From assembly GCA_017447745.1 (NCBI GenBank), contig JAFSMW010000106.1, positions 1 through 27,629 of the forward strand: 27,629 bases of DNA, in the 5' to 3' direction. A program made the translations under genes and the position numbers. The notes beneath the pieces were generated by a model. That model saw only the letters and a program-made list of their open reading frames with translations, made no database searches and was not told the origin of the DNA. Source of the DNA: Thermoguttaceae bacterium (GTDB taxonomy: Bacteria; Planctomycetota; Planctomycetia; Pirellulales; Thermoguttaceae). Below, one piece after another: positions 8,236 to 27,629 of this stretch; position 1 is the stretch's first letter, and each line of letters starts with the position of its first letter.

Positions 8236-8404
8236 GAGTTAGGAATGAGGAGGGAGGAGTGAGGAGTTGGTATAGCGCTTTGCGCCGACAGGGTCGGTTC
8301 CCGAATGGACGTGGGATGCGCCGAAATAGGCTTTTTCGGAGGCATAACCTTGTCCTCTTGCCCGCGCGGCTTCGCGCCCTCACTCCTAATTCCTAACTCC
8401 TAAC
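8236..8404. repeat. MITE-like unit: inverted heptamer arrays (gagttaggaatgaggagggaggagtgaggag ... cctcactcctaattcctaactcctaact) flanking a ~95-bp core with a gcgcg-gctt-cgcgc hairpin
   Basis: The arms at 8236-8269 and 8377-8404 are reverse complements of the same heptamer family. It sits between the metzincin stop (8423) and the umuC-like start (8206). Confidence 0.5.
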
Positions 8405-8422
8405 TGTTTAAACTACAGTCTA

Positions 8423-9826
8423 TTAATCCCTAATCTTTATATGAATCCCCTCCGTCTTTCCGTACCGGTCAATGACGTGCATTTCCAAATCGCCTTTGAA
8501 TTCCTCGCAGCCGTCTTTAAGTTCCTCTACAGAGAATCGCATCTGCTTCGGCAGCGGCTGACCGGGTTGAGGCGCAACGTAAAGTTGTCTATCTTCGCCG
8601 GACGCGACGCCGAAAAAGGCGATGCCGTTTTCCGCTTCGAGTTTAACGGACTGATTGTCGTCGATGAGTTCAATTTTGACGTCTCCTTCATCGTTTACCG
8701 GCGGTTCGTCCTGGAAGAACCGGTTGACGTTCAGCGCCGCGGCGGAAATGGGCGACCAGTTGGCGGCTTCGTCGTCAATATTTTCCAGCCAATCGTCGTT
8801 TTCTTTGCTGGGGGCTTCCCGCATGACAAAGAAACGGTTGAGCTGGTCGATTCCTCGCGTCATGATGTCGCGCGGTTCGTTGGAATGGGGCAGATCGAAG
8901 GTGTGTCCCAACTCGTGCAGAGCCGCGCCGATTGTCGTTGCCGCTGCCGCCCAGTAGACGGAACGGTAGGCGGAATCGTCATGGAAATGTTTGCTGTCAA
9001 CGGGGGTGGAGTCCGTAAACGCTTTGACGACGCCGTCGAGCGAGTCCGACCACGTATACATGCAGCTGGAACCGAACATCGCCTGACAGCCGCCACCCAA
9101 AGCAGTGTGACATTTCGTCTCTTTGGTTTTGGGATCAAAGCGCGTATAGGAGGGAATGACGAGGTTGCGTCCGGAATCTTCCGGGAACTGGGGCGTAACT
9201 TCGTCATAAACCATGTCGTACCAGTCTTCATCAGAAACGGAACCGTATTCTTTCGCCGTCTTCTTTCCTTTGAAGACGTGAACAATGACGTCGCCGTTTT
9301 CGTCCAGTTCCAGATTGAACGTCTTTCTGCCCAGACCAGCGTCGTTCATGGATTCCGCCGTAAAACACTGCATCAATTTGAGAGCGGTGTCGAGTTTTCC
9401 TTTGAAATTCTGTGGGTCGTTTTTATACGGCGTTTGAAACGTCGTGTCGCCGGTGGAATCCGTCATGTAAATCATACGGACAACCAGCGGATTGGAGTTC
9501 TTTTTGTAGTTCAGCTTCAGAGTCGTTTTATATTCTCCGCTTGTCAGTTCGAGTTCATTTTCTCCCGGAACGAGTTCAGCAAGAACCTTGAACTTGCCTT
9601 TCCAGGCGTCGCCATGAATCTTTCGAGACGCTTTCTGAGACGATAAATTTGTACAGACAATTTCCGTTGCGGATTCGTCGTACAGACGCCCTCGCAGCAA
9701 CGCGACCGGGTAATCAATTTCCGTCCCGTCGGTAAAATTAACGACTTGAATCGCCTCGTCGGCAAACAGCGCCGACGTCAGTGAAATAAGTAAAGCAAAA
9801 GCAATAGTTGTAATGTAACGAGTCAT
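8423..9826 (-). CDS. Secreted metzincin-type zinc metalloprotease (matrixin-like HEXXHXXGXXHS motif, here HELGHTFDLPHS, plus Met-turn DIMTRG), paralog A
   Basis: Signal peptide MTRYITTIAFALLISLTSALFA. Zinc-binding motif and Met-turn are present. Closely similar along its whole length to the 9933..11330 gene immediately upstream. Confidence 0.7.
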   Translation of the reverse strand: MTRYITTIAFALLISLTSALFADEAIQVVNFTDGTEIDYPVALLRGRLYDESATEIVCTNLSSQKASRKIHGDAWKGKFKVLAELVPGENELELTSGEYKTTLKLNYKKNSNPLVVRMIYMTDSTGDTTFQTPYKNDPQNFKGKLDTALKLMQCFTAESMNDAGLGRKTFNLELDENGDVIVHVFKGKKTAKEYGSVSDEDWYDMVYDEVTPQFPEDSGRNLVIPSYTRFDPKTKETKCHTALGGGCQAMFGSSCMYTWSDSLDGVVKAFTDSTPVDSKHFHDDSAYRSVYWAAAATTIGAALHELGHTFDLPHSNEPRDIMTRGIDQLNRFFVMREAPSKENDDWLENIDDEAANWSPISAAALNVNRFFQDEPPVNDEGDVKIELIDDNQSVKLEAENGIAFFGVASGEDRQLYVAPQPGQPLPKQMRFSVEELKDGCEEFKGDLEMHVIDRYGKTEGIHIKIRD

Positions 9827-9864: not shown

Positions 9865-9944
9865 GAGTTAGGAATTAGGAGTGAGGAGCGATATTCGCCG
9901 AAGGCGAACCACTACTGCCTACTGCCTCTTGCCTATTGCCTAAC
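9865..9944. repeat. Heptamer-array + hairpin element between the two metzincin paralogs (gagttaggaattaggagtgaggag / ttcgccgaaggcgaa / ctactgcctactgcctcttgcctattgcctaac)
   Basis: The central hairpin is a perfect palindrome. The right arm supplies the last three codons and the TAG of paralog B (..VRQ*). Confidence 0.7.
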
Positions 9945-11330
9945 ATGAACGCTTCTCGTCTTTCCGTAACGGTCAATAGCGTGAAGCTCCAAACCGTCTT
10001 TGAAATTTTTGACTTTGTCTTTGAGTTCCTGAACGGAGAATCGCATCTGTTTAGGCAGTTCCTGACCCGGTTGAGGGGCAACGAAAAACTGGCGATGTCC
10101 GTCAGACATGGCGCCGAAATAAGCGATGCCGTTTTCCGCCTCGACCTCAACGGTTTCCCCGTCGTCAACGATCTGCAGCGTAACTCTCCCTTGATTTTCA
10201 GCCGGCGGTTCGTCCTGGAAGAACGGGCAGACGTTCAGCGCCGCGGCGGAAATGAGCGACCAGTTGGCGGCTCGGTCGTCCAGGTTTTCTAACCAATCTC
10301 GATTGAATCTGCTGGGAGCTTCCCGCATGACGAAAAAGCGGTTAAGCTGGTCGATTCCGCGGGTCATGATGTCGCGCGGCTGGTTGGAATGGGGCAGACC
10401 GAAGGTGTGTCCCAACTCGTGCAAAGCCGCGCCAATTGTCGTTGACGCCGCCGCCCAGTAAACGGAACGGAAAGCAGTGTCGTCATGGAAACGCTCTTTA
10501 TCAACGGGCGTGGAATCCGTAAACGCCTTGACAACGCCGTCGAGCGAATCCGGCCACGTGTACATGCAGCCTGACCCGAACAGAGCCAGACTTCCGCCGC
10601 CTAACGCTGTGTGACATTTCGTCCTTTTGGTTTCTGGATCAAAGCGAGTATAGGCGGGAATGACGAGGTTTTTTCCATTGTACCACGGGAAGTCATTTGA
10701 TATTTCCTGATAGACCTTATCGTACCATTCATGATCGGAAAGAGCGGCGTATTCCTCCATCGTCTTCTGTCCTTTGAAGACGTGAACGATTACGTCGCCG
10801 TTGTCGTCCAGTTCCAGATTGAACGTCTTTCGACCCAGCCCAGAGTCGTTCATGGTTTCTGCTGTAAAGCACTGCATCAGCTTTAACGCGGTGTCGAGCT
10901 TGCCCTTGAAATTCTGCGGGTCGTTTTCATACGGCGTTTGGAACGTTGTGTCGCCGGTCGAATCCGTCATGTAAATCATACGGACGACCAACGGGTTGGA
11001 GTTCTTTTTGTAGTTCAGTTTCAGAGTCGTTTTATGATCCCCACTTGTCAGTTCGAGTTCGTTTTCCCCCGGAACGAGTTCCGCAAGAACCTTGAACTGA
11101 CCTTTCCAGGCGTCGCCGTGAATCTGTCGAGACGCTTTCTGAGAAGACAAATTCGTACAGACGATTTCCGTTGCGGATTCGTCAGAAAGACGCCCTCGCA
11201 GCAACGCGACCGGGTAGTCAATTTCCGTTCCGTTGGTAAAGTTAACGACTTGAATCGCCTCGTCGGCATACAGAGCCGACGTCAGCGAGATAAACAATGC
11301 AAAAACGATAGTTGTGATGGTGCGTGTCAT
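9933..11330 (-). CDS. Secreted metzincin-type zinc metalloprotease (HELGHTFGLPHS, Met-turn), paralog B
   Basis: Signal peptide MTRTITTIVFALFISLTSALYA. Canonical HEXXHXXGXXH is present. The preferred start is the second Met (matches paralog A); the track start at 11351 adds MINTLPT. There are 17 bp between it and the upstream oxidoreductase stop. Confidence 0.7.
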   Translation of the reverse strand: MTRTITTIVFALFISLTSALYADEAIQVVNFTNGTEIDYPVALLRGRLSDESATEIVCTNLSSQKASRQIHGDAWKGQFKVLAELVPGENELELTSGDHKTTLKLNYKKNSNPLVVRMIYMTDSTGDTTFQTPYENDPQNFKGKLDTALKLMQCFTAETMNDSGLGRKTFNLELDDNGDVIVHVFKGQKTMEEYAALSDHEWYDKVYQEISNDFPWYNGKNLVIPAYTRFDPETKRTKCHTALGGGSLALFGSGCMYTWPDSLDGVVKAFTDSTPVDKERFHDDTAFRSVYWAAASTTIGAALHELGHTFGLPHSNQPRDIMTRGIDQLNRFFVMREAPSRFNRDWLENLDDRAANWSLISAAALNVCPFFQDEPPAENQGRVTLQIVDDGETVEVEAENGIAYFGAMSDGHRQFFVAPQPGQELPKQMRFSVQELKDKVKNFKDGLELHAIDRYGKTRSVHVRQ

Positions 11331-11347
11331 GGTAGGGAGCGTATTAA

Positions 11348-12829
11348 TCAATCAATTGTCGGAACGATATACGGTGCGCGCTGCGGTCGCGTCAGCAGGG
11401 CGTTGGCTTCCGGCATGCCGTCAATCTGGAATGTTTCGTTGTTGATGGAAATCTTCTTGCCCAGCGTCCAGGCAACGTCTTTGTTGAGGTCAAGCTCCGG
11501 CAGACAGAACTGGACGTTTTCGAGCGTTTCGTCAATCGTCTGCTGCATAATCGGATTGTTCCCGACAGCGTCGCGGCAGGCGTTCAGAGACGCTGTTGAC
11601 CCGGAACGATAAGAGACGTTGCCCAAGTGACAAATTCCGGCGCTGAAATGCCCTTCGGTAATCGGCGCGTTGAGCTTGTCCGGCGTATTGTCGCGAACGC
11701 AGTTGATAAAGTTCTGGAAGATGTCGCCGGGGTTGAGCGCTTCGCAGTCAATATTGATTTGTTCCGTCTTTCCGTTGTTGGAATGGAACGTCGAACCTTG
11801 AATGTACCCATCTTCTGTTACAAACCAGCCAACTTCTCGCGGATTCCATTTGTCGTTGTTGCGATTTCTCAGATTGCAGGACTGGAAAATGAGCGGGATC
11901 CCGTTAAAGTCGCAAATTCCCAGCATGACAGTTGGTGTCTCAGCGGCGTCCTTGTAATTATGCTCTTTGTCGATAACCGTTCGCGTTCCGAAAAAGACGA
12001 CGTTTTGCGGGAATTTGAGATCGGGGAAAAGCTGCGTCAGACCGATTCGGCAGACGTCAAAGTAATGGACGCCGTTGTTGCCGATTTCTCCGTTTCCGAA
12101 ATTCCAGTACCAGTGCCAGTTGTATGGGACGTATCGTTCGCTAAAGGGAACCATCGCCGCCGGACCGACCCACAAGTCCCAATCGATGTTTTGCGGGGCA
12201 GGGGCGTCTGGAAGGAACGGCATGGGATTGCGCGGTCGATTGGCAAACGCCTTAACGGCAATCGGTTTCCCGAACATTCCCTTTGCCCAGGCGACTGCGC
12301 CTTTTTTTGTTCCGAAGTCGCACCGTCGCTGCGTTCCGTGCTGAATGCAGACGTTGTACTTTCTCATCGCCGCCGCCAACTGACAGCCCTCAAAGAGATT
12401 TTGGGAACAGGGCTTTTCGACGTAGACGTGCTTTCCCGCCTGCGCCGCCCAAATTCCCAAAAGCGAATGCCAATGGTTGCAGGACGCAATCGAAACAAAA
12501 TCGACGTCCTTGTCGTCAAAAAGCTGACGGGCGTCCTGAACGGCTTTGCAGTCGTTTCCCTTTTTATCTTTGATCCATTTAGCAGCGCTGTTGGCGCGAT
12601 TCAAATCAGCGTCCGCCGTTCCGACGATTTCCACGCCGTTGATGCCGGAAAACGCCTGAACGTGATGATTTCCTCGACTGCCAACGCCCAACACGGCGCC
12701 GCGAAGGCGGTCGTTCGCTCCAAACGCCTTGGACGAAATAAACAAAGGACAAACCGCCGCGCCGGAAATGACGACGCTGGCTTTAACGAAATCTCGTCTT
12801 GAAATCTTTCTTTTGAAAGTCATGATCAT
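11348..12829 (-). CDS. Gfo/Idh/MocA-family NAD(P)-dependent oxidoreductase with twin-arginine (Tat) signal
   Basis: RRDFVKASVVISGAA Tat motif. Rossmann-type VLGVGSRGNHHVQAF...VEIVG and EKPCSQ family motif. 493 aa. Confidence 0.8.
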   Translation of the reverse strand: MIMTFKRKISRRDFVKASVVISGAAVCPLFISSKAFGANDRLRGAVLGVGSRGNHHVQAFSGINGVEIVGTADADLNRANSAAKWIKDKKGNDCKAVQDARQLFDDKDVDFVSIASCNHWHSLLGIWAAQAGKHVYVEKPCSQNLFEGCQLAAAMRKYNVCIQHGTQRRCDFGTKKGAVAWAKGMFGKPIAVKAFANRPRNPMPFLPDAPAPQNIDWDLWVGPAAMVPFSERYVPYNWHWYWNFGNGEIGNNGVHYFDVCRIGLTQLFPDLKFPQNVVFFGTRTVIDKEHNYKDAAETPTVMLGICDFNGIPLIFQSCNLRNRNNDKWNPREVGWFVTEDGYIQGSTFHSNNGKTEQINIDCEALNPGDIFQNFINCVRDNTPDKLNAPITEGHFSAGICHLGNVSYRSGSTASLNACRDAVGNNPIMQQTIDETLENVQFCLPELDLNKDVAWTLGKKISINNETFQIDGMPEANALLTRPQRAPYIVPTID

Positions 12830-15970: not shown

Positions 15971-16150
15971 GGGTTTAGGCAGTAGGCAAGAGGCAGTAGG
16001 CAGTAGTAGTTCGCCTTCGGCGAATTTTAAACTACGCCATATTACCTATTGTCTAAACTAATGTTTTCCGTTGGTTTGATGAATAAATAAGGCAGTATGC
16101 AGTAGAAAAGATTTCCCTATTGCCTACTGCCTACTGCCTAATGCCTCAAA
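15971..16150. terminator. Bidirectional element between convergent M16 peptidase and GH5 genes: TAGGCAG-type array (15976-16006), hairpin ttcgccttcggcgaa (16010-16024), second hairpin ggcagtatgcagtag...cctattgcctactgcctactgcc (16091-16140)
   Basis: Plus-sense array directly follows the M16 TAA; the minus-sense array follows the GH5 TGA. Perfect GC hairpin in the centre. Confidence 0.6.
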
Positions 16151-17765: not shown

Positions 17766-17796
17766 CTACTGCCTATTGCCTACTGCCTATTGTCTA
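17766..17796 (-). repeat. Heptamer array (ctactgcctattgcctactgcctattgtcta) filling the GH5/beta-helix intergenic gap and supplying the ...NRQ-TAG end of the beta-helix gene
   Basis: Direct reading. The stop codon at 17780-17782 lies inside the array. Confidence 0.7.
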
Positions 17797-20257: not shown

Positions 20258-20544
20258 GGCAGGGAAGGGAAGCTGTTGAGATTTGCAAGAGGATGAAAGG
20301 CGGTAATGACGGTTGGTCATTCCAGAGTTTTGGTTTGCCTTCGGCAAACTGCGTAATTCCGCTCCCGTTGGTCGCTCCATTACCGCCTTCCATTCTCATT
20401 ATAAACCAACCCAAAACAAAAATCAAGAATTTTCCTGTATTTTTCTCTTATCCCGCTTTCTTTTTTCTGAATTAATCGTATAAATATAAATAGAGTAATT
20501 GGTTTCTTTGCAAACGTTTGACAATATCACCCAATTTAAGAGTC

Positions 20545-21207
20545 ATGACAACGCTTTTAGTTTCTAACGATCTGACGTTCCTGTCAAGTGGAATTCATGG
20601 TCTTTATCTGATCTGCGCTATAGTCGGCGGGTTCATTATGGTCGTCCAGTTCCTGATGATGATTTTTGGATTTGGCGATTTTAATGACGTCGACGCTCCC
20701 GGCGACGCTCCAGACGTCAATTTAGACGGCGGCGACGTCGACGCTGGAGACACTGACGTTGGCAGCGGCGACGCTGACGTCGGCGGCGGAAACATGATTT
20801 CCTTGGCGCGCTTTTTGAGTTTTCGGGTTATTGTTGCTGCAAGCGCATTTTTTGGCGTTCTCGGATTATGGGCTGACAGCGCCAAATTCCACCCAATAGT
20901 CAGTTTTATTGTGGCTCTTTTAGGTGGATGGGTTGCCGGAGCCGCAGTTGCTTTTATTATGGGATTTATCAACAAACTGCAGTCCAGCGGAAACGTTAAA
21001 TTGGAATCTGCCGTTGGAAAAACAGCCACCGTCTACATTCGCATTCCAGAAAACAAATCCAATACCGGGAAAATTCAGCTAACCATCCAAGGACGAATTG
21101 ACGAAATGGAAGCCATGACGCCCGGTCCCGCCCTGCCCTCCGGCGCTACGGTCGTCATCAAAGAAATTGTCGATGGTCGCATCGCTATCGTTGAAGAAAA
21201 ACAATAA
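20545..21207 (+). CDS. NfeD-like membrane protein (short form: TM helices + C-terminal OB-fold), with an Asp/Gly-rich insert
   Basis: Hydrophobic helices followed by an OB-like C-terminus GKTATVYIRIPENKSNTGKIQLTIQGRIDEM...VVIKEIVDGRIAIVEE. Acidic segment DVDAPGDAPDVNLDGGDVDAGDTDVGSGDADVGGG. Lies upstream of flotillin, as in yuaF-floT-type operons. The track start at 20518 is a TTG; the ATG at ~20545 is preferred. Confidence 0.65.
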   Translation: MTTLLVSNDLTFLSSGIHGLYLICAIVGGFIMVVQFLMMIFGFGDFNDVDAPGDAPDVNLDGGDVDAGDTDVGSGDADVGGGNMISLARFLSFRVIVAASAFFGVLGLWADSAKFHPIVSFIVALLGGWVAGAAVAFIMGFINKLQSSGNVKLESAVGKTATVYIRIPENKSNTGKIQLTIQGRIDEMEAMTPGPALPSGATVVIKEIVDGRIAIVEEKQ

Positions 21208-21218
21208 CGTTAATAGCC

Positions 21219-21268
21219 AGGAGTTAGAAGCGATACATTTGGGATATACTTCTAACTCCTGTTTTTTT
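21219..21268 (+). terminator. Rho-independent terminator after the NfeD-like gene (12-bp stem aggagttagaag/cttctaactcct + T7)
   Basis: Perfect 12-bp stem followed by gttttttt, 12 nt after the TAA. The stem is built from the GAGTTAG heptamer. Confidence 0.7.
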
Positions 21269-21457
21269 CAATTCTGCTTCCACCAACCAGCTTCTTAACA
21301 TTCATCGTCAACGATAAAAGCGGATTGTCTTTTACCTGCATGCTGGCAGCTAACAGGTTTCAATCTATATTCTCTATTCCATACAATTATTGCATTCATT
21401 ACAAACCATACTCTCTACGGATTTTAATCCATATTTTTTATTTATCCTTCGCAAGAT

Positions 21458-21487
21458 TTTACATTTTGTCAAAATATATGATATAAT
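21458..21487 (+). promoter_or_regulatory. Sigma70-like promoter candidate for flotillin (TTTACA - 18 nt - TATAAT) within a 360-bp AT-rich leader region
   Basis: tttaca at 21458-21463 and tataat at 21482-21487, giving a ~125-nt leader to the ATG at 21620. That ATG has a good SD (GAGGT, 7 nt upstream). Confidence 0.35.
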
Positions 21488-21619
21488 TAAAGCTGGAGAA
21501 GATGTATCAACCATGCATTTCTGGTAATTTAAATTAATTGAAACAGATAAAGAGTCTTTGAATAAAGCGCTCTATCTTCAATTATCAGTTTTTAACGTTA
21601 ATCCAATCGAGGTAAAACC

Positions 21620-23260
21620 ATGACGCATTTAGCAACATTATCGCAGATAACAGAATCTTCGATGATCTATCCGGCAATTTTTATCGGATTGATTATTCTG
21701 CTTCTTGCCGGGCTGTTTGTTCTTTTTCTGAAATGTTATAAACGCTGCCCCAGTAACCGGATTCTTGTCATTTTCGGTATGACGGAAAAAGGCAAATCGG
21801 CAGTCTGCATTGCCGGCGGCGCGAGATTCGTCAAGCCGTTTATTCAGGATTACGCTTGGCTGTCTCTCGAACCGATGCAGATTGAAGTTCCTCTGCGCGG
21901 CGCGCTGTCTTTGGAAAACATCCGCGTCAACGTCCCCAGCGTGTTTACGGTTGCTATCGGAACGTCAGACGACCTGATGCAAAATGCAGCAGTTCGACTT
22001 CTCGGCTTGTCTTTCGGGGAAATCAAAAAGCAGGCAGAGGACATCATTTTCGGTCAGATGCGTCAGGTAATCGCGTCCATGCCGATTGTTGACATCAACC
22101 GCGACCGTGACAAGTTTCTGGAAAACATTCAACATTCTCTGGAACCGGAATTGCGAAAAATCGGTTTGATTCTCATCAACGTCAACATTACAGATATTAC
22201 TGACGAATCTGGCTACATCGAAGCAATGGGGCAGAAAGCGGCGTCTGAAGCGATTCAGAAGGCGCGCGGCGACGTTGCGGAAAACGAAAAGATGGGCGCT
22301 GTCGCCGTTGCCAACGCAGAACGGGAAAAGGCGGTTCGCGTTTCGGAAGCCAACCGCGACATGAACATCGGAACCCGTGAAGCTGAACGAGATCAGCAGA
22401 TTCGTTTGGCAGATCTGGCAAAAGAGCAGTCCATTGGAGAACAACAGGCGGAATTCCAGAAAGAAGCCGAAATCAAAGAAGCAGAACGGGAAATGCGAAT
22501 TCGTCTGGCAGACGCCAACGCGAAGGCGATTGAGGGCGAAAACATCTCTCAAGCCGTCATTGCAGCGTCTAAAGCCGAGTTGATGATCAAACAGGCGGAA
22601 GCGTTTCAGGCAGGCGGTACGAAAAAGGCCGTTGCGGAAGCCGCTGTTAAAGAAGCGGAAAACTTGGCTTTGGCAAAGGCGGCGGAAGCGGAAGCGGTTC
22701 GCATTGAAGCAGAGCGTCGCGCCGAACTGGAAGCCCCGGCAAAAGCCGAAAAGGCGAAAATCATCGTCGAGGCGGAAGCCGAAGCCGAGAAACGACGCGT
22801 CGAGGCGACTGGTCGAGCGGCAGAAATCTATGCGGAACTGGAAGCACGAGCCCGCGGCGAATACGAAATCCTCGCTCGGAAAGGCGAAGGTCTTCAGAAG
22901 ATTATCGAGGCGTGCGGCGGCGCGGAAGCTGCGTTCCGACTCCTGCTTCTGGAACATTTCGACACACTGATCGAATCCTCCGCAAAAGCCATTTCCAACA
23001 TCAAGTTCGACAAAGTCGTCGTTTGGGATGGAACTGGACAAGGCGGTCAAACGGCAACGTCCAACTGGCTTACCGGCATGGCGAAAACGCTCCCGCCGAT
23101 GCTCGAAGTCATGAAAGAAGTCGCCGGCGTCGACATCCTGCCGTCTATCACCGGAGCCGAAAGCAAAGAACCCGCTCCGGCGGCAGAAGCCCCTGTCCCA
23201 ACGGAACCCCCTGCCCCGGCGGCAGAAAAACCTGTAACAAAAACCGCTGCGAAGAAATAG
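21620..23260 (+). CDS. floT: Flotillin-like SPFH/band-7 protein (FloT-like)
   Basis: N-terminal membrane hairpin followed by an SPFH domain and a long Ala/Glu-rich coiled-coil (EA repeats); 546 aa. The TAG stop is part of the downstream GGGAATA array. Confidence 0.8.
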   Translation: MTHLATLSQITESSMIYPAIFIGLIILLLAGLFVLFLKCYKRCPSNRILVIFGMTEKGKSAVCIAGGARFVKPFIQDYAWLSLEPMQIEVPLRGALSLENIRVNVPSVFTVAIGTSDDLMQNAAVRLLGLSFGEIKKQAEDIIFGQMRQVIASMPIVDINRDRDKFLENIQHSLEPELRKIGLILINVNITDITDESGYIEAMGQKAASEAIQKARGDVAENEKMGAVAVANAEREKAVRVSEANRDMNIGTREAERDQQIRLADLAKEQSIGEQQAEFQKEAEIKEAEREMRIRLADANAKAIEGENISQAVIAASKAELMIKQAEAFQAGGTKKAVAEAAVKEAENLALAKAAEAEAVRIEAERRAELEAPAKAEKAKIIVEAEAEAEKRRVEATGRAAEIYAELEARARGEYEILARKGEGLQKIIEACGGAEAAFRLLLLEHFDTLIESSAKAISNIKFDKVVVWDGTGQGGQTATSNWLTGMAKTLPPMLEVMKEVAGVDILPSITGAESKEPAPAAEAPVPTEPPAPAAEKPVTKTAAKK

Positions 23261-23316
23261 GGAATAGGAATGGGGAATAGGGAGTAGACGCTTGCGTCAA
23301 CTCCTCACTCCTAACT
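23257..23316. terminator. Bidirectional element between convergent flotillin and minimal-metallopeptidase genes (tagggaataggaatggggaatagggagtag / acgcttgcgt / ctcctcactcctaact)
   Basis: The plus-sense array contains the flotillin TAG. The minus-sense array begins 2 nt after the metallopeptidase TGA. Confidence 0.6.
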
Positions 23317-23318
23317 AT

Positions 23319-23774
23319 TCAGTATCCTAACGATTCCAAATCGTCGTCGCTCAAACCGTGAAGATGTCCGTATTCGTGTAATATCGTAATACGGATTTCT
23401 TCGTCAAGTAGATCTAAATTAATATCAGACGGTTTGAGCAAATTCAGTTCCGGGTCGAGTCGTTCAAAGAATTCATCTGTTAACGACTCGTCCGCCTCTA
23501 ACGCCTGAACGATGATTCCCTCTCGATAAATCACGACGGAGTCCGGCGTCATCGGCTGGGCTTCAATGGATTTCTCTGTAATCCCGATTCCGGTAAACAG
23601 CCCGCACAGCTCGTCGCGAAACTCTATTCCCATGGTTTCCATGACCTCGTCGGACGGGTAATCCTCAACCAGCAGCGGAATCTCGTTGTTGATTATATCC
23701 AGGACCTCCGCCGGCAGCGTCTTTATAACTGCCTCAACCCGGGCGTCAAACAGTTTTCGTAATTCTCGTTTCAT
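23319..23774 (-). CDS. Minimal zinc metallopeptidase (COG3824-like 'MMP-like' domain, HEXXHXXGXXD: HEYGHLHGLSDDD)
   Basis: 151 aa from MKRELRKLF. The track start at 23891 reads through the GGGAATA array (PIPYSLLPIPYSL). Confidence 0.7.
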   Translation of the reverse strand: MKRELRKLFDARVEAVIKTLPAEVLDIINNEIPLLVEDYPSDEVMETMGIEFRDELCGLFTGIGITEKSIEAQPMTPDSVVIYREGIIVQALEADESLTDEFFERLDPELNLLKPSDINLDLLDEEIRITILHEYGHLHGLSDDDLESLGY

Positions 23775-23781
23775 AGATGCA

Positions 23782-23980
23782 GGGAATAGGGAGTAGGGAA
23801 TGGGGAGTAGGGAATAGGGAATAGGGAATAGGGAGTGGCAAGTGGATTGGAAGGCGGTAATGGAGCGACCAACGGGAGCGGAATTACGCATTCGCCGTCA
23901 GGCGAACGGAGGCATTAGGCGATAGGCAATAGGAAAGAGTGTAAAATTTCTACTGCCTACTGCCTCTTGCCTACTGCCTC
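23782..23980. repeat. Large composite element between the radical-SAM gene and the metallopeptidase gene: (GGGAATA/GGGAGTA)x8, hairpin ttcgccgtcaggcgaa (23891-23906), TAGGCGA/TAGGCAA/TAGGAAA array, then ctactgcctactgcctcttgcctactgcc
   Basis: Direct reading. The last arm encodes the final EAVGKRQ and the TAG of the radical-SAM protein on the minus strand. Confidence 0.8.
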
Positions 23981-25036
23981 CCTATAGTCCTCATAGCACA
24001 ACAGCGGCTCATTGCGGTCAAAGTCCCAGGTATGGGTTGAATCGCCGCCGCAAAGAAACCGCTCTGAACAGTTGACGCATTTGGAGCAGTCGGCAGTGCG
24101 GTCTTTTCTGAAAACCTGAAAACGATTCAGCCAGACGTCCATAAAGTTGTCCGTCTTGATATTCCCCTGAACCAGCTCCGGTCTGTTTTCGATATCCAGA
24201 CACGCACAGATGTCGCCGTTGCTTCTCACGCTGGCAACTAAGATTCCCGCTCCGCAGAGGAAATAATGATCGCGAACCATGCGCTCGTTCTCTGCTCCAA
24301 GGTAATGCGAGCACCCGAACGTTACTTCCATCTTGTTGGCGCTGTCAAATCGCTTGTTTCGTATATAGGAAATCAACTGAGCAAACTGTTCCGGCGACAA
24401 CAACATGTCGCTTGACTCACAAGCTCGTCCAATCGGCTCTACGTTGATCGGCCGCCAGTTGGTTATGCCCATCTGAGTGAGCATATCGTACAGCTCGTCC
24501 AGTTCGTTGAAGTTGTCTCGATGTAACACGGTCGTTACCTGCGGCTCGAACCCCGCCTTCTGCAGAGCTTTCAGCCCGCGCAGAGCAAGACGCCAGCTGC
24601 CCTTCCGCTGTCGGAGAGAGTCGTGCGAGCGCTCCAGCCCGTCCAGGCTGACGGACACCGTAGACATTCCAACCTGTTTAAGATTCTCTGCAATCACGTC
24701 GTCGATCAACGTCGCGTTTGTCGTCATGCCCCAATAGAACCCCATCGACCGAACGCATTGAGCTATCTCGAAAAAAGCAGGATGCATCATCGGCTCGCCG
24801 CCGGTTAAGCAGATTGAGGGTTTGTCGCCCTGAATGGTTTTCAGGACGCCTTTAATATCCTCGACGGTCAACGTCTGCCCATGAGCGGTGCAGTTACTCC
24901 CGCAATGCCGACACCGAAGATTGCATCGATTGGTAATTTCAAAGAAAAGCCACCGGAGATGCGGAGATTTTCGGAGGGATTCCCTGTGCTGCGCGACAAC
25001 TTCAAGCTGTGAACGTTTTAGCTCTGTTACATCCAT
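23957..25036 (-). CDS. Radical SAM enzyme with C-terminal SPASM domain (peptide/protein-modifying maturase-like)
   Basis: CxxxCxxC cluster ITNRCNLRCRHC and a GGEP motif (LTGGEPMMHP). C-terminal Cys-rich SPASM-type segment (CGAGILVASVRSNGDICAC ... CSKCVNCSERFLCGG). 359 aa. Confidence 0.85.
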   Translation of the reverse strand: MDVTELKRSQLEVVAQHRESLRKSPHLRWLFFEITNRCNLRCRHCGSNCTAHGQTLTVEDIKGVLKTIQGDKPSICLTGGEPMMHPAFFEIAQCVRSMGFYWGMTTNATLIDDVIAENLKQVGMSTVSVSLDGLERSHDSLRQRKGSWRLALRGLKALQKAGFEPQVTTVLHRDNFNELDELYDMLTQMGITNWRPINVEPIGRACESSDMLLSPEQFAQLISYIRNKRFDSANKMEVTFGCSHYLGAENERMVRDHYFLCGAGILVASVRSNGDICACLDIENRPELVQGNIKTDNFMDVWLNRFQVFRKDRTADCSKCVNCSERFLCGGDSTHTWDFDRNEPLLCYEDYREAVGKRQ

Positions 25037-25068
25037 TCGATAATCCCCCGCTTGTTGCGGCTCTCTCG

Positions 25069-25494
25069 CTACGACTCTTTATTTTCCTCGTTTTCCATTC
25101 TCGCGAAGGCGTTGTCGACGTACTCTCGAACGTTATCCAAGTACCCCTGGACGTTATCCAGTTGCTTTTCCAAGACAGGCGCAGGAGATTCAGGAACAAA
25201 TGCGCCCGCCTCGTCTCCATCCTTTGCTTTACCCGGGGCAGAACCGCCGCACTTCGGGCAATAGCGTTCGCGGTCAATCATCTGATTGGTTGTCCAAGTG
25301 TACCCACATTTTACGCATTTATGAACTCTCGTGATGGGCGGCGGTCCATAGATGCAGGCGAAGTTTTCTGGTATATAGGCGGGCTTCCCCATCTTCGCTC
25401 CGCAATACCGACAGTATTTATCCCCTTCAATATAAGTGTTTTTGCAATTAGCGCAAACCTTTCTCATCGGTCGTTTTCCAGGCATTCCAGGCAT
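25069..25494 (-). CDS. Cys-rich double zinc-ribbon protein with an acidic helical tail (candidate substrate or partner of the radical SAM enzyme)
   Basis: Two CxxC-x10-14-CxxC units (CANC..CRYC and CVKC..CPKC), followed by LDNVQGYLDNVREYVDNAF and an acidic end. Strong SD AGGAGG 5 nt upstream of the ATG at 25492-25494; the track start at 25518 overlaps that SD. 32-nt gap to the radical-SAM start. Confidence 0.6.
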   Translation of the reverse strand: MPGMPGKRPMRKVCANCKNTYIEGDKYCRYCGAKMGKPAYIPENFACIYGPPPITRVHKCVKCGYTWTTNQMIDRERYCPKCGGSAPGKAKDGDEAGAFVPESPAPVLEKQLDNVQGYLDNVREYVDNAFARMENEENKES

Positions 25495-25706
25495 AATATC
25501 CTCCTGTTTATAATACAATTTCTCTGCTAAATACGATTAATAGCGTATTTTTAATATAATCTATTCTCACTTTGTTTTCAAGTAGATTTTTAGAAATTGG
25601 GTAAAAAATTTGAAAAATAGATTATCTCGAGAGTTGCAACTGAGGGCGATAAATTTGGGGTTACGAAAGTAGGTGAGATTAACAATCGCATTCAATTTGA
25701 ACGTAG

Positions 25707-25933
25707 CCCACGCCTTTAGGCGTGGGTTCCAAAACGACATAAATAGTAATATAACGCACAAATTCCCTGTCCCTTCCCCGCTCCGAATGGAGCGGGGAAG
25801 GGACAGGGAGGGAAGCGTTTTGGGGAGGAGCATTTATTTAGTCCCCCAGATAAATCTGGGGGCTACGTTTTTTGAATTGTTTTTATTACCCACGTCTAAA
25901 GACGTGGGGATAAGAACAGATAAATCTGGAGAC
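25707..25933 (+). ncRNA. Cluster of GC hairpins in a 600-bp non-coding region. Hairpin cccacgcc-ttta-ggcgtggg (25707-25726). Perfect 20-bp stem ccctgtcccttccccgctcc-gaat-ggagcggggaagggacaggg (25765-25808). Hairpin cccccaga-taaa-tctggggg followed by cTACGttttttg (25843-25873). Hairpin cccacgtc-taaa-gacgtggg (25889-25908). Degenerate repeat cagataaatctggagactacg.
   Basis: Direct reading. The third hairpin plus T-run looks like a plus-strand intrinsic terminator, but there is no plus-strand CDS for 2.5 kb upstream. Hairpins 1/4 and 3/5 are duplicated units. Confidence 0.35.
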
Positions 25934-26057
25934 TACGACAAGGTTTCAAGGCTATTTCCTTTTTTCATGCCCCCAATTTTGAACACACTCTTCCGAATTC
26001 TGAATTAAAAATAGGTCTGGATAAAAATGGGGAAATATATTATAATAAGAGGTGTAT

Positions 26058-26118
26058 AGGGAATAGAGCTTCGCATTCGGCGAATTTAAATACTATTCCC
26101 TACTCCCTATTCCCTACT
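26058..26118. repeat. Heptamer-array + hairpin element immediately upstream of the 26122 start codon (tatagggaatagag / cttcgcattcggcgaa / tattccctactccctattccctacta)
   Basis: Direct reading. Same family as the elements at gene 3' ends. Confidence 0.7.
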
Positions 26119-26121
26119 ATC

Positions 26122-27629
26122 ATGAAAAACCACCTTAACTTTATCCTGCTCCTGACGTTATTCGCCTTTACAGGCGCAATCGCGACGGCGGACGCACCGG
26201 CGGGCGGCGCTCAAAGCGACGGCGTTCAAAATGAAGCCAACGAGGACGACATTTTCGACATGGAAGAAGACGCCGACAAGGAATACGACGATCTGTCCAT
26301 ACAAGCTATGGACGGTTCTCCCAGATATTTCTTTAATCGAGCGTCAGAGGAAGTCGTTCAACAAGCCAACCAGATTTTTGAGAACCCGGACTATCAGCAA
26401 GCCCTTCTCGACGCCCAGCGTCTGATTGAAGAAAACCCCGGAACGTTCTTTCCCGCCAAAACGGAATCGGTCAACTTCAGCCACAATATAACAAGAACTC
26501 AATGGTATCCAATTGAATGGGCGCTCAGTACTGGACGCAATCGGCGCTTGACTGACGACGAAGTCAAAATTTACCGTCAGATTCAGGACGAGGCGGCAAA
26601 CGCGGCTTACGACGAGGCAAACAAGACGTCTGACCCGCAGCTGCGTCTGGCGAAACTGGACGACGTCCGCCGGCAGTATCCGGGATCAAGCATCGCCCCG
26701 GCTATCGCTTTGGAATTGGGCGATGCGTTGGCGGCGCAAAGCGCTGCGCTTATCGCTTTTGATTATTGGACAAGCTCAATTCGTCCGGAAATTGGCAGAG
26801 CGTTTTTACAAGATAACCATTGGGATAATACGTATCCTTCTGAAAAATGCCGCGTTTCGGAAGCGGAACTGGTCTTTAGGGTTTATATTATTGGTTTACG
26901 AACAGGAATTTTCTTGCCTGTTTTGAAAAAAATTTCTGATAAAGAAACCGACCTTGAAGCGTTCAGACGTCTTTTCCCTACAGCCAAAGCCGTAGTCAAT
27001 TCTAAAAATATTGTTATTGCCTCTCCGAGTTATCCTTTTCCAGAATCCATGACGCGTTACGACGGAAAAGAAGTCGTTCTGGCGGATTATCTGACGGAAC
27101 TGAAAACGGAAATTGACGAGGCGCGAGAATCGTTCAAACATTCATTTATTGAGGACGATCCAGAAAATGAGCCCTCTGTAGAAGAGAATCCAGAGGATTA
27201 TTTATTATGTAATCAGTATGGTCTTTACGACGCTCGACCGGTAGAAATAAACGGCGCCATGTACGCTGGGAAATATTTATACTATCATAAATATAATGCT
27301 GAAAAACAATATAGTATAAAACAATTTCCATTTACCGTTCACCCGTCAAACGGGTTGACAGCGTTTCTACAAGGAGTTCGTTTTCAAGAGTCTTATGAAT
27401 TAGAAACTTCCGAAGACGATAACGCTCCTTATACCAGCGCGGAATCTGTTCTTTATCCAGGTCGCGTTCCCCAAGACTTTGAACCTGCAAGCAACTGGCT
27501 TATTTGCATAGATCGCGACAATGGAAACAAAGTCCTCTGGACGCGATCATGGAACAACAACCATTCTATGTGGAAAAATTCAGGATATTTTTTTCACGAT
27601 AAATTTTTCGCGCTTGAAGTTTCCTTAAA
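26122..27629 (+). CDS. Hypothetical secreted protein, 3'-partial (runs off window; absent from the ORF track because no stop is reached)
   Basis: Hand translation from the ATG at ~26122 gives MKNHLNFILLLTLFAFTGAIATADAPAGGAQSDG... with no stop through 27629 (502+ codons). Only short ORFs exist in the other frames. Confidence 0.6.
   Translation, partial: MKNHLNFILLLTLFAFTGAIATADAPAGGAQSDGVQNEANEDDIFDMEEDADKEYDDLSIQAMDGSPRYFFNRASEEVVQQANQIFENPDYQQALLDAQRLIEENPGTFFPAKTESVNFSHNITRTQWYPIEWALSTGRNRRLTDDEVKIYRQIQDEAANAAYDEANKTSDPQLRLAKLDDVRRQYPGSSIAPAIALELGDALAAQSAALIAFDYWTSSIRPEIGRAFLQDNHWDNTYPSEKCRVSEAELVFRVYIIGLRTGIFLPVLKKISDKETDLEAFRRLFPTAKAVVNSKNIVIASPSYPFPESMTRYDGKEVVLADYLTELKTEIDEARESFKHSFIEDDPENEPSVEENPEDYLLCNQYGLYDARPVEINGAMYAGKYLYYHKYNAEKQYSIKQFPFTVHPSNGLTAFLQGVRFQESYELETSEDDNAPYTSAESVLYPGRVPQDFEPASNWLICIDRDNGNKVLWTRSWNNNHSMWKNSGYFFHDKFFALEVSL

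What the first reader, a model, noticed from the sequence alone, without database searches (positions are those of the whole stretch)
23319..25494. Operon of a double zinc-ribbon Cys-rich protein, a radical-SAM/SPASM enzyme and a minimal HEXXHXXGXXD metallopeptidase: candidate protein/peptide post-translational modification system
The minus-strand order is a 141-aa Cys-rich protein (two CxxC...CxxC ribbons plus an acidic helical tail, strong AGGAGG SD), then 32 nt later a radical SAM enzyme with a SPASM auxiliary-cluster domain, then after one composite repeat element a 151-aa minimal zincin. SPASM-domain radical SAM enzymes typically install thioether or C-C crosslinks, or modify Cys/Ser in a partner peptide or protein encoded next to them. 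RiPP-like clusters also use a small dedicated protease. Here the adjacent candidate substrate is an unusually large, zinc-ribbon-type Cys-rich protein rather than a short precursor, and no sulfatase gene is nearby, as an anaerobic sulfatase-maturase reading would require. I do not recognise this three-gene combination as a described system.
Basis: partly seen in the sequence, partly recalled or inferred. Interest (0 to 1): 0.75.

Follow-up and report, generated by a model that had tools for sequence, protein, structure and literature searches.

The report
Zinc-ribbon protein with probable splicease partner
The small Cys-rich zinc-ribbon protein and the radical-SAM enzyme next to it form a two-gene module shared by rumen and gut bacteria of several phyla. 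It most likely works like the known "splicease" systems, which cut a tyramine unit out of an X-Tyr-Gly motif; the neighbouring metallopeptidase is only a local neighbour.

Summary
The triad is not a system. The zincin follows the radical-SAM gene only in the closest Thermoguttaceae relatives and nowhere else.

The conserved unit is a dyad: a zinc-ribbon protein (ZnR) plus a radical-SAM/SPASM enzyme. They are adjacent in 27 of 28 genome loci from Planctomycetota, Bacillota and Chloroflexota, with 59-97% enzyme identity. Adjacency survives reversed gene order, ZnR fusions (FHA, TM2) and arrays of several ZnR copies per enzyme.

Across 118 divergent ZnR relatives, a [I/V/L]-Tyr-Gly-Pro loop 17-21 residues after ribbon 1 is as invariant as the metal-binding cysteines. 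The sister enzyme family, TIGR04133, pairs with lipoproteins that all carry Glu-Tyr-Gly-[Ser/Thr]-Pro. Related enzymes also sit next to X-Tyr-Gly partners: the PlpX-type TIGR04103, the TIGR03913 "GDL" type and an Agathobacter enzyme.

Best reading (about 0.6): a binary splicease acting on a folded zinc-ribbon protein at Ile48-Tyr49-Gly50. The chemistry is inferred, and enzyme-level similarity to proven spliceases is weak. Verdict: a probable new member of a known kind.

The parts
25069..25494 (-). ZnR gene: a 141-aa double zinc-ribbon protein, the probable protein substrate of the radical-SAM enzyme.
   Evidence: ORF and translation. Pfam zinc-ribbon matches. 88 close homologues. 1232 representative relatives at E<=1e-3. 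Upstream of the enzyme gene on the same strand in 27/28 loci.
25500..25505 (-). Shine-Dalgarno AGGAGG, 5 nt before the ZnR ATG.
   Evidence: Read directly from the sequence.
25553..25581 (-). Promoter-like TTGAAA-17-TATATT upstream of ZnR. This is a consensus match only.
   Evidence: The number of such sites in the region is no higher than in shuffles, so the evidence is weak.
25402..25455 (-). Ribbon 1 (C14-x2-C17 ... C28-x2-C31). Proposed metal site and recognition scaffold that sits ahead of the target loop.
   Evidence: These cysteines are 100% conserved in 118 divergent relatives. Ribbon 1 is kept even in partners that lack ribbon 2 (L017; P0361 and P0389).
25336..25356 (-). Loop Cys47-Ile48-Tyr49-Gly50-Pro51-Pro52-Pro53. 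[quoted passage not shown]
   Evidence: Conservation: Y49 100%, G50 97%, P51 100%. The motif sits 17-21 residues after ribbon 1 in 121/147 representatives. The same Y-G-x-P motif is present in all 28 N-terminally complete TIGR04134 partners and in PlpX-type precursors (PMC10533398).
25249..25317 (-). Ribbon 2 (C60-x2-C63 ... C79-P-x-C82-G), with rubredoxin-like knuckles.
   Evidence: Cysteines 97-99% conserved. Weak matches to rubrerythrin-like and FmdB ribbons. Dispensable in some relatives.
25075..25179 (-). Lineage-specific C-terminal acidic helix (residues 106-140, LDNVxxY heptad repeats).
   Evidence: AlphaFold2 helix with high pLDDT. 21-nt tandem repeat. Absent from the ~90-aa homologues of other phyla.
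23957..25036 (-). Radical-SAM/SPASM enzyme gene (359 aa), the probable splicease-like maturase.
   Evidence: Pfam. NCBIfam best match TIGR04133 at 255 bits, below the cutoff of 425; TIGR04103 at 128 bits. 2261 homologues. AlphaFold2 model with pTM 0.85; the closest fold by TM-score is anSMEcpe.
24902..24925 (-). CxxxCxxC radical-SAM cluster motif (C38, C42, C45).
   Evidence: Sequence. Invariant in alignments.
23996..24313 (-). SPASM region with seven invariant cysteines (C242, C261, C279, C320, C323, C329, C347) for two auxiliary Fe-S clusters.
   Evidence: Alignment with distant family members and TIGR04133 proteins. Pfam SPASM match.
23775..23956 (.). Spacer made of heptamer tandem repeats (AGGGAAT x7.7; CTACTGC) plus a hairpin. 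Not specific to this locus.
   Evidence: The same heptamer families occur in many intergenic regions of the window.
23319..23774 (-). Zincin_1 (PF06262) minimal metallopeptidase, 151 aa. It is a lineage-specific downstream neighbour, not part of the conserved module.
   Evidence: Pfam 2.6e-21. Present only in L001-L005 and L007; absent from L006, L008 and all other phyla.

Best explanation
A self-contained two-gene protein-modification module of the splicease type.

Proposed steps (all inferred from homology, motif logic and published splicease chemistry):
1. The zinc-ribbon protein folds around two Cys4 metal sites. Between them it presents the loop Cys47-Ile48-Tyr49-Gly50-Pro-Pro-Pro.
2. The radical-SAM/SPASM enzyme is translated from the same transcript, 32 nt downstream. 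It binds this partner directly, because it has no RRE domain and there is no separate helper protein.
3. Using a 5'-deoxyadenosyl radical, the enzyme excises the tyramine part of Tyr49 (C8H9NO, -135.07 Da).
4. [quoted passage not shown]
5. Ribbon 1, always 17-21 residues upstream of the Tyr, probably plays the part that a leader helix or Y protein plays in described spliceases.

What is shown: the gene linkage, the motif conservation and the spread of the module across phyla. The product is a modified intracellular protein, not an exported peptide, because no protease or exporter is conserved with the pair.

What is speculation: by analogy with other ketoamides, the electrophilic site may act as a Ser/Cys-protease-inhibiting or covalent-capture warhead.

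The module appears to have spread by horizontal transfer among rumen and gut anaerobes, and this planctomycete acquired it. The zincin downstream is an unrelated neighbour.
For: Linkage:
- ZnR lies upstream of the enzyme gene on the same strand in 27/28 genome loci. These come from Thermoguttaceae, Acidaminococcaceae, Lachnospiraceae, Oscillospiraceae, Mogibacterium, Christensenella, Eubacterium ruminantium and Leptolinea.
- The one exception, L006, is cut by a contig end. No other neighbour is conserved.
- Distant members keep the link with reversed order and 4-nt overlap (L036, L037). It also holds at 46% enzyme identity (L038).

Substrate-like behaviour of ZnR:
- Four to five ZnR paralogues precede one enzyme gene in L042/L043, and two in L001.
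- There are tandem half-domains made of ribbon 1 plus YGP (P0361, P0389).
- The domain is fused to FHA or TM2 and still sits next to the enzyme gene.

Motif:
- Y49 and P51 are 100% conserved and G50 97% in 118 representatives that are <=50% identical to each other. That equals the conservation of the metal-binding cysteines.
- The spacing from ribbon 1 is fixed.

Independent families of related SPASM enzymes all sit next to X-Tyr-Gly partners:
- TIGR04133 with TIGR04134 lipoproteins: E-Y-G-[STQ]-P in 28/28 N-terminally complete members.
- Nostoc TIGR04103 (PlpX class) with a Nif11 precursor ending ...ALYGLPPELF and a 71-aa Y-like protein.
- B. pseudomallei TIGR03913 with DUF1842/1843 proteins carrying MYGV/PYGV.
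- An Agathobacter enzyme with an unannotated peptide ending ...PVMYGTGVRM.

Published chemistry:
- Spliceases are SPASM radical-SAM enzymes that excise tyramine at XYG.
- Binary systems without a Y protein exist in hundreds of pathways, and proteins can be substrates (PMC11414181, PMC11626197, PMC10533398, PMC9811515, PMC10849128).
- The native splice tag PIRPLYGLPI has Pro two residues after the Gly, much as here.

Enzyme level:
- TIGR04103 is the best-scoring experimentally characterised peptide-modifying family for the window enzyme (128 bits).
- TIGR04133 is the fourth-best family for the PlpX-like protein (152 bits over its full length).
- In a neighbour-joining tree all XYG-linked enzymes group together.
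Against: - Enzyme similarity to the PlpX class is low: 27% identity and 128 bits against a family cutoff of 725. The generic AhbD and NirJ2 models score slightly higher (about 147-150 bits).
- The clade of all XYG-linked enzymes has only 89/200 bootstrap support, with three outgroups and sparse sampling.
- No helix-forming leader or Y protein is present. In the systems I could read about, those elements activate the splicease (PMC11414181).
- About 4% of family members have Tyr-Ala-Pro instead of Tyr-Gly-Pro.
- I could not find a folded metal-binding domain described as a splicease substrate. The key survey (Scott et al. 2022, Chem 8:2659) is not in the library, so I cannot say whether this type was tested or predicted there.
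- There is no mass-spectrometric evidence.
Confidence: 0.6

Rival explanations
1. Same enzyme-substrate pair and same target loop, but a different radical chemistry at Cys-x-Tyr-Gly-Pro. Candidates are a Cys47-Tyr49 thioether, a three-residue Tyr-Gly-Pro cyclophane of the triceptide type, C-alpha epimerisation, or dehydrogenation.
For: - The ZnR-type/TIGR04133 clade is only about 27-33% identical to PlpX-like enzymes, and its grouping with them is weak (89/200).
- A Cys two residues before the Tyr is common in both partner families: 82/89 close ZnR homologues, 78/127 motifs in divergent ones, and most TIGR04134 members.
- SPASM enzymes perform many kinds of crosslink. CteB, SkfB and SuiB are among the structural neighbours.
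Against: - The Cys at -2 is replaced by T, E, D, L, M, V or P in about 40% of divergent members, while Tyr-Gly is nearly invariant. A thioether therefore cannot be the general reaction.
- The one chemistry known to need exactly X-Tyr-Gly is tyramine excision.
- Four other related enzyme families share the motif.
Confidence: 0.22
2. ZnR is not the substrate. It is an accessory partner, for example a rubredoxin-like iron protein that reduces the enzyme's cluster (as Dph3 does for Dph1-Dph2) or an adaptor, and the true substrate is a common cellular molecule.
For: - Ribbon 2 has rubredoxin-like CxxCG...CPxCG knuckles and weak rubrerythrin-like matches.
- The whole domain is conserved at a level similar to the enzyme.
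- No protease or exporter is linked.
Against: - Several ZnR paralogues occur per enzyme gene.
- Some repeats and variants lack ribbon 2.
- ZnR is fused to FHA and TM2.
- The sister enzyme's partner is a lipoprotein beta-sandwich with no metal site that shares only the Tyr-Gly-x-Pro motif.
- Tyr-Gly-Pro is as conserved as the ligand cysteines.
Confidence: 0.08
3. One reading: a RiPP-like system in which the zincin processes the modified Cys-rich protein.
For: - Same strand, and no terminator-like site between the enzyme gene and the zincin.
- The arrangement is kept in six closely related Thermoguttaceae MAGs.
Against: - The zincin is absent from L006 (94% enzyme identity), L008 (82%) and all 20 non-planctomycete loci.
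- It is separated from the enzyme gene by a 182-nt repeat spacer.
- Flanking genes differ even among close relatives.
- Ketoamides are described as inhibitors of Ser/Cys proteases, not as substrates of metalloproteases (PMC9811515).
Confidence: 0.05
4. The enzyme is a cofactor or sulfatase maturase (AhbD/NirJ-like or anSME-like) that merely happens to lie beside a zinc-ribbon gene.
For: - AhbD and NirJ2 models score about 147-150 bits over the full length.
- anSMEcpe is the best TM-score neighbour (0.71).
Against: - All these scores are far below the family cutoffs (500; 349 for anSME).
- The AhbD and NirJ2 models score about 133-154 bits on most of the related SPASM enzymes tested (about 93-97 bits on the Treponema TIGR04133 protein), so they carry little specific information.
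- There are no heme or sulfatase genes nearby.
- The strict cross-phylum linkage with ZnR is unexplained by this reading.
Confidence: 0.03

Closest known systems
Binary (type II-like) spliceotide pathways, e.g. RhaX/RhaA and RcsX/RcsA of Rheinheimera (PMC11414181, PMC11626197)
   Same: Two components only: an SPASM radical-SAM enzyme plus an adjacent precursor with a conserved X-Tyr-Gly site (LYG, MYG). There is no separate Y protein. [quoted passage not shown]
   Different: In those systems the substrate is a leader-core peptide whose leader helix binds and activates the enzyme. Here the substrate is a folded double zinc-ribbon protein with the motif in an inter-ribbon loop and no predicted leader helix. 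No protease or exporter is linked. Enzyme similarity to the only PlpX-class sequence I could compare is low (27%).
Type I spliceotide system PlpA/PlpX/PlpY (TIGR04103 / IPR026482); Nostoc sp. C057 example in L044
   Same: SPASM radical-SAM enzyme with an X-Tyr-Gly target followed by Pro (PIRPLYGLPI, ALYGLPPELF). The splice tag works inside whole proteins, independently of the leader.
   Different: Type I needs the small Y protein and uses Nif11/NHLP leaders. The window enzyme scores 128 bits against a cutoff of 725 for TIGR04103, so it is not a member of that equivalog family.
TIGR04133 radical SAM/SPASM protein with its TIGR04134 'radical SAM-associated putative lipoprotein' (Bacteroidales, Treponema)
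   Same: This is the nearest enzyme family: 33-35% identity, 255 bits, and 200/200 bootstrap as sister clade. It is also a two-gene unit with the partner gene directly upstream. The partner carries an invariant [C/A/V]-E-Y-G-[ST]-P motif.
   Different: The partner is an exported lipoprotein with CarboxypepD_reg-like beta-sandwich domains, not a cytoplasmic zinc ribbon. The window enzyme is below the TIGR04133 cutoff of 425. I found no experimental work on this family.
TIGR03913 'GDL motif peptide-associated' maturase with DUF1842/DUF1843 proteins (Burkholderia, Azospirillum, Ralstonia)
   Same: SPASM enzyme, 47-48% identical to the PlpX-like protein, next to ~200-aa proteins (not peptides) that carry M/P-Y-G-V motifs. 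This shows that protein-sized X-Tyr-Gly partners are common in this enzyme group.
   Different: Different partner fold and different phyla. Only about 100 bits to the window enzyme.
Anaerobic sulfatase-maturating enzyme (anSMEcpe, PDB 4K36-4K39)
   Same: Compact SPASM enzyme without an RRE that modifies a residue in a protein substrate. It is the best TM-score match to the model (0.71).
   Different: It targets Cys/Ser in a C/S-x-P-x-R motif of sulfatases. Here no sulfatase is nearby, and TIGR03942 scores 74 bits against a cutoff of 349.

Membership tests
Splicease / spliceotide systems | Radical-SAM enzyme with CxxxCxxC and a full SPASM auxiliary-cluster domain. | tested here: met
   Pfam Radical_SAM 4e-27 and SPASM 7e-7. 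C38/C42/C45 plus seven invariant C-terminal cysteines.
Splicease / spliceotide systems | Adjacent precursor or protein with a conserved X-Tyr-Gly splice motif. | tested here: met
   The window has Ile48-Tyr49-Gly50. Y is 100% and G 97% conserved in 118 divergent relatives. 121/147 representatives have the motif at a fixed distance from ribbon 1. Adjacency holds in 27/28 loci.
Splicease / spliceotide systems | Enzyme belongs phylogenetically with proven spliceases (PlpX class, TIGR04103/IPR026482). | tested here: inconclusive
   TIGR04103 scores 128 bits, far below its cutoff of 725, though it is the best characterised peptide-modifying family. The reciprocal match of the PlpX-like protein to TIGR04133 is 152 bits. 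The neighbour-joining clade of all XYG-linked enzymes has 89/200 support with only three outgroups.
Splicease / spliceotide systems | [quoted passage not shown] | not testable with these tools
   Needs co-expression and mass spectrometry. The expected peptide is MGKPAYIPENFACIYGPPPITR, shifting from 2434.22 to 2299.15 Da.
Splicease / spliceotide systems (type I only) | A small PqqD-like Y protein or a helix-forming leader that activates the enzyme. | tested here: not met
   There is no third conserved gene. The ZnR core model has only short beta elements. Binary types lack the Y protein but use a leader helix (PMC11414181).
TIGR04133 radical SAM/SPASM family | Score at or above the curated cutoff (425 bits). 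| tested here: not met
   255.6 bits. This makes it a sister family, with 200/200 support for the joint clade.
TIGR04133 radical SAM/SPASM family | Partner is a TIGR04134 lipoprotein. | tested here: not met
   ZnR has no TIGR04134 match, even at E<=10.
Anaerobic sulfatase maturase (TIGR03942) | Score at or above the cutoff, and a sulfatase target gene. | tested here: not met
   74.4 bits against a cutoff of 349. No sulfatase was found among the window ORFs scanned.
Classical exported RiPP cluster | Short leader-core precursor plus a conserved protease and/or exporter. | tested here: not met
   The partner is a conserved folded domain of about 80 aa. Across 28 loci no neighbouring cluster is conserved other than ZnR and the enzyme. 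The zincin is lineage-specific.
Zincin_1 (PF06262) minimal metallopeptidases (third ORF) | Pfam match above the gathering score, with the HExxHxxGxxD motif. | tested here: met
   75.8 bits against a cutoff of 22.4. HEYGHLHGLSD is present in the sequence.
Known anti-phage defence systems (PADLOC) | A specific model match for ZnR or the enzyme. | tested here: not met
   The enzyme gives only a generic radical-SAM-core match to pVip models, and ZnR gives none.

The most novel reading that the evidence does not exclude
The ZnR-type clade and the TIGR04133/TIGR04134 clade together form a large, experimentally untouched branch of radical-SAM enzymes that write a backbone modification into folded proteins at a Tyr-Gly loop.

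Two versions of this reading remain open:
- The modification is the ketoamide, giving genetically encoded covalent protease-inhibitor or capture modules. One form would be cytoplasmic (zinc ribbon, sometimes fused to FHA or TM2) and one displayed on the surface (lipoprotein). Both would have spread by horizontal transfer through rumen and gut communities.
- The chemistry is something other than tyramine excision.

In either case a metal-binding ribbon, rather than a leader peptide, would be the recognition element.
Probability: 0.3. Interest if true: 0.7.

Novelty: new member of a known kind. Interest (0 to 1): 0.45.

Why it matters
If the prediction holds, common rumen and gut anaerobes from at least three phyla insert a beta-amino acid/alpha-ketoamide into a small folded metalloprotein.

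- That would widen splicease biology from exported peptides to intracellular proteins.
- It would give a compact, naturally leader-free tag (zinc ribbon plus an I-Y-G-P-P-P loop) for protein engineering.
- It points to a possible family of protein-based covalent protease inhibitors in the rumen.
- It would also give a testable function to the unassigned TIGR04133/TIGR04134 pair of human-gut Bacteroidales.

If the chemistry turns out to be different, the pair would be a new radical-SAM protein modification with an easily assayed substrate.

For annotation, the lesson is that the zincin should not be grouped with the pair.

Tried and rejected
Tried, without useful result:
- Foldseek of the ZnR model against the PDB gave nothing significant, only generic MCM zinc ribbons at E>0.5.
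- PADLOC gave only a generic viperin-core match.
- The phage collection had no ZnR match, and the plasmid collection had no enzyme homologue above 34% identity.
- Rfam found nothing in the window.
- Literature searches for zinc ribbon + SPASM, for TIGR04133/4, and for rumen + radical SAM found nothing relevant.
- One broad search was wasted.
- Scott et al. 2022 could not be retrieved.

Ideas considered and dropped:
1. A glycyl-radical carrier like the NrdD C-terminus (zinc ribbon followed about 16 aa later by Gly). The RVxGY motif is absent and the enzyme is not a PFL-AE/NrdG-type activase.
2. A rubredoxin-like electron donor. See the rival explanations.
3. An obligatory Cys47-Tyr49 crosslink. 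The Cys is not conserved.
4. The heptamer inverted repeats at 23769-23801 and 26095-26127 as ends of a mobile cassette. The same heptamers occur in intergenic regions across the window.
5. A missed short precursor ORF next to ZnR. None is conserved.


Full report
**1. Observation**

The window is a chromosomal stretch of a Thermoguttaceae-like planctomycete from a ruminant gut.
- The radical-SAM protein is 97% identical to that of a goat-duodenum MAG, and the flanking DNA is about 86-94% identical to several such MAGs.
- The window also carries housekeeping genes: ArgRS, LigA, a DinB-type polymerase, an M16 peptidase, GH5 and flotillin.

The three minus-strand ORFs in the finding are exactly as described.
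- ZnR, 25069-25494, is 141 aa. It has AGGAGG 5 nt before the ATG, two CxxC...CxxC ribbons and an acidic C-terminal helix.
- The enzyme, 23957-25036, is 359 aa and starts 32 nt after the ZnR stop. It has CxxxCxxC and a seven-Cys SPASM region.
- After a 182-nt spacer of heptamer repeats comes a 151-aa Zincin_1 protein with HEYGHLHGLSD (23319-23774).
- The Pfam matches agree with these assignments.

**2. What is conserved**

A scan of one genome per species returned 28 true loci.
- ZnR lies upstream of the enzyme gene on the same strand in 27 of them. It is within about 300 nt in 26. The exception, L006, is cut by a contig end 162 nt upstream.
- The hosts are Thermoguttaceae, Succiniclasticum/Acidaminococcaceae, Lachnospiraceae, Oscillospiraceae, Mogibacterium, Christensenella, Eubacterium ruminantium FB3002 (an isolate), other Clostridia and a Leptolinea (Chloroflexota). 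Most are rumen or gut MAGs.
- Enzyme identity to the window is 59-97%, and about 74-76% for several Bacillota and the Chloroflexota member. DNA similarity between phyla is confined to the two genes.
- I read this as horizontal transfer of a two-gene cassette. That is an inference.
- Clustering all neighbouring ORFs found no third conserved gene.
- The zincin is present only in six Thermoguttaceae loci with at least 94% enzyme identity. It is absent from L006 (94%), L008 (82%) and every other phylum. The triad therefore fails the test its author proposed.

**3. ZnR behaves like a substrate**

- A profile search over 1.84 billion representative proteins found 1232 relatives at E<=1e-3 and 320 at E<=1e-10.
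- In distant members the enzyme gene is still adjacent. In L036 and L037 it sits upstream with a 4-nt overlap. In L038 the enzyme is only 46% identical.
- Some loci carry several ZnR genes for one enzyme gene: four to five in L042/L043, and two in L001. L039/L040 carry two ZnR genes in tandem on contigs too short to show an enzyme gene.
- The ZnR core is fused to FHA domains, a TM2 domain, long N-terminal regions or extra ribbons.
- Tandem units of "ribbon 1 + YGP" without ribbon 2 exist (P0361, P0389). One 73%-identical enzyme (L017) is paired with a partner that keeps only ribbon 1 and CLYGPPP.
- Multiple copies, fusions and repeats are what one expects of a modified substrate module, not of a dedicated redox partner.

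**4. The target motif**

- Among 118 family representatives that are <=50% identical to each other, these positions are 100% conserved: the four cysteines of ribbon 1, Gly32, Tyr49 and Pro51. Gly50 is 97% conserved and the ribbon-2 cysteines 97-99%.
- The Tyr lies 17-21 residues after the last Cys of ribbon 1 in most members. The preceding residue is I, V or L. The Cys two positions before it is present in only about 61%.
- The AlphaFold2 model is confident for both ribbons (pLDDT above 90) and lower for residues 41-50 (79), consistent with a loop.

**5. The same motif in other partner families**

- The closest curated enzyme family is TIGR04133 (255 bits, below its cutoff of 425). Its members are annotated next to a "radical SAM-associated putative lipoprotein", TIGR04134.
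- Every one of the 28 TIGR04134 relatives with a complete N-terminus has [C/A/V/T/D]-E-Y-G-[S/T/Q]-P a few residues after the lipobox. There is no metal site in these proteins. The only thing they share with ZnR is the Tyr-Gly-(x)-Pro motif.

**6. Link to known chemistry**

- X-Tyr-Gly is the defining target of spliceases. These are SPASM radical-SAM enzymes (PlpX and relatives).
- They excise a tyramine equivalent (C8H9NO, 135.06 Da) and join the carbonyl of the former Tyr to that of residue X. [quoted passage not shown]
- Later work from the same group is described as revealing hundreds of two-component pathways without the Y protein, sorted into types by splicease phylogeny and precursor identity. 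It reports 27 characterised and 939 predicted systems (PMC11414181, PMC10533398, PMC10849128).
- The native splice tag is PIRPLYGLPI (PMC10533398).

I checked three more relatives directly.
- A Nostoc TIGR04103 enzyme (PlpX belongs to IPR026482, PMC11002830) follows a Nif11 precursor ending ALYGLPPELF and precedes a 71-aa Y-like protein.
- A Burkholderia pseudomallei TIGR03913 "GDL" maturase follows DUF1842/1843 proteins with AAMYGVA, MPMYGVG and TPYGVA.
- An Agathobacter rectalis enzyme, about 32% identical both to the window enzyme and to the PlpX-like one, follows an unannotated small ORF ending PVMYGTGVRM.

So five related enzyme groups all sit beside X-Tyr-Gly partners.

**7. Enzyme-level evidence is only compatible**

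- TIGR04103 is the fourth-best NCBIfam match of the window enzyme (128 bits), and the best among experimentally characterised peptide-modifying families.
- Conversely, TIGR04133 is fourth for the PlpX-like protein (152 bits, full length).
- The AhbD and NirJ2 models score about 133-154 bits on most of these enzymes (about 93-97 bits on the Treponema TIGR04133 protein), so they are uninformative.
- In a neighbour-joining tree of 12 sequences, support was as follows:

| Grouping | Bootstrap |
|---|---|
| ZnR-type + TIGR04133 | 200/200 |
| PlpX + GDL + Agathobacter | 156/200 |
| All XYG-linked enzymes, against TIGR04053, MftC and PqqE | 89/200 |

- The model of the enzyme (pTM 0.85) is a compact SPASM fold without an RRE. 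It is closest by TM-score to anSMEcpe, with BlsE, CteB, SkfB and SuiB also near. No splicease structure was among the PDB matches.

**8. Mechanism proposed**

Shown:
- the gene pair is linked and conserved;
- the motif is conserved;
- there is no conserved protease, exporter or helper gene.

Inferred:
- The enzyme binds the folded ZnR, probably through ribbon 1.
- It abstracts a hydrogen atom and excises the tyramine unit of Tyr49.
- This leaves keto-beta-Ile48 joined to Gly50.

Speculative:
- The ketoamide serves as an electrophilic warhead. Spliceotides inhibit Ser and Cys proteases (PMC11626197).
- The FHA and TM2 fusions, and an Imm32 gene near L038, hint at signalling or conflict roles.

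One viral-collection contig carries the dyad immediately after a tyrosine integrase (L050). That fits mobility, but it is a single case.

**9. Rivals**

The rivals are:
- other chemistry at the same loop;
- ZnR as a redox or adaptor partner;
- the triad with the zincin;
- a cofactor or sulfatase maturase.

They are weighed in the Rival explanations section. Briefly, the non-conserved Cys argues against an obligatory thioether. The lipoprotein partner without a metal site argues against a redox-partner role. The neighbourhood data argue against the triad.

**10. Novelty and verdict**

- No curated NCBIfam model names either protein, sources call them "radical SAM protein" and "zinc ribbon domain-containing protein", and I found no paper on this pair.
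- The kind of system is nevertheless known. The 2022 survey that predicted 939 splicease systems could not be read here, so this type may already be listed there.
- I therefore file it as a probable new member of a known kind, with moderate interest.
Its interpretation is half right: the enzyme-substrate pair holds, but the peptidase and the claim of an undescribed system do not.

Noticed in passing
window 459-488, 1658-1681, 8236-8267, 8378-8405, 9912-9942, 15976-16006, 16116-16146, 17766-17796, 23256-23287, 23781-23836, 23950-23980: Short arrays (3-8 copies) of 7-nt tandem repeats (CCTACTG/AGGCAGT, AGGGAAT, CCTAACT, GAGTGAG) lie mostly in intergenic regions across the window; the arrays at 459-488 and 8236-8267 fall inside ORFs. 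They resemble cyanobacterial STRR elements. They encode the last codons of the radical-SAM gene (EAVGKRQ, where relatives have QFLE). They also produce the false N-terminal extension of the 190-aa zincin ORF.
   Followed up: partly
window 25614-25990: A cluster of perfect or near-perfect hairpins (for example 25764-25809, 25843-25862 and 25917-25937) lies upstream of ZnR. This segment has no match in the closest relatives (L002, L003, L007), so it looks like an insertion of REP-like palindromic elements.
   Followed up: partly
window 4805-5100 (inside ORF 4711-6684, minus strand): An 18-nt tandem repeat of 16.4 copies with 95% matches encodes (DADVED)n acidic hexapeptide repeats in the C-terminal part of a 657-aa thioredoxin-like protein.
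   Followed up: no
window 8423-9826 and 9933-11351 (minus strand): Two tandem paralogues of the PF12044 'putative peptidase' family (E 3.5e-74 and 1.7e-78), each also with a weak matrixin-like match.
   Followed up: no
window 20518-23260 compared with L001: The 229-aa ORF at 20518-21207 (membrane-protein-like; no Pfam match at E<=0.001) and the flotillin (SPFH) gene between the BNR_4 gene and the zincin are missing from the closest MAG (L001). There the zincin is followed directly by the BNR_4 homologue. This is an indel of about 3 kb between near-identical genomes.
   Followed up: partly
window 26122-27629 (+), runs off the window end: A divergently oriented gene for a signal-peptide protein of unknown function (no Pfam match for the 614-aa homologue in L001). 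In relatives it is followed by a McsB-like ATP:guanido phosphotransferase.
   Followed up: partly
L001 5013-5285 and 5378-5788; L042/L043 3606-5580: Extra ZnR paralogues sit ahead of one radical-SAM gene: two in a Thermoguttaceae MAG, and four to five (including half-domain repeats) in a metagenomic contig.
   Followed up: yes
L003 9284-9451 and L007 10624-10791: A second, partial copy of the zincin C-terminus (residues 96-151, 87% identity) lies about 4 kb downstream of the full gene in two relatives.
   Followed up: no
L045 about 2324-2428 (Agathobacter rectalis plasmid NZ_CP143948.1): An unannotated small ORF ending ...NLFGPVMYGTGVRM lies directly upstream of a radical-SAM/SPASM gene that is about 32% identical to both PlpX-like and ZnR-type enzymes, and an MFS transporter gene follows. 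It is probably an unannotated spliceotide precursor in a human-gut Firmicute.
   Followed up: partly
L050 4274-7065 (IMGVR_UViG_3300008268_000244): The ZnR/radical-SAM dyad (70% enzyme identity) sits immediately after a tyrosine integrase, with an HNH endonuclease and a repressor-like gene nearby, at the end of a predicted viral or prophage contig.
   Followed up: partly
L027 5732-6703 and L021 2688-6723: In L027 the dyad is decaying: ZnR is truncated after ribbon 2's first knuckle and the radical-SAM gene is broken. In L021 three ORFs (about 2.7 kb) are inserted between ZnR and the enzyme gene.
   Followed up: no
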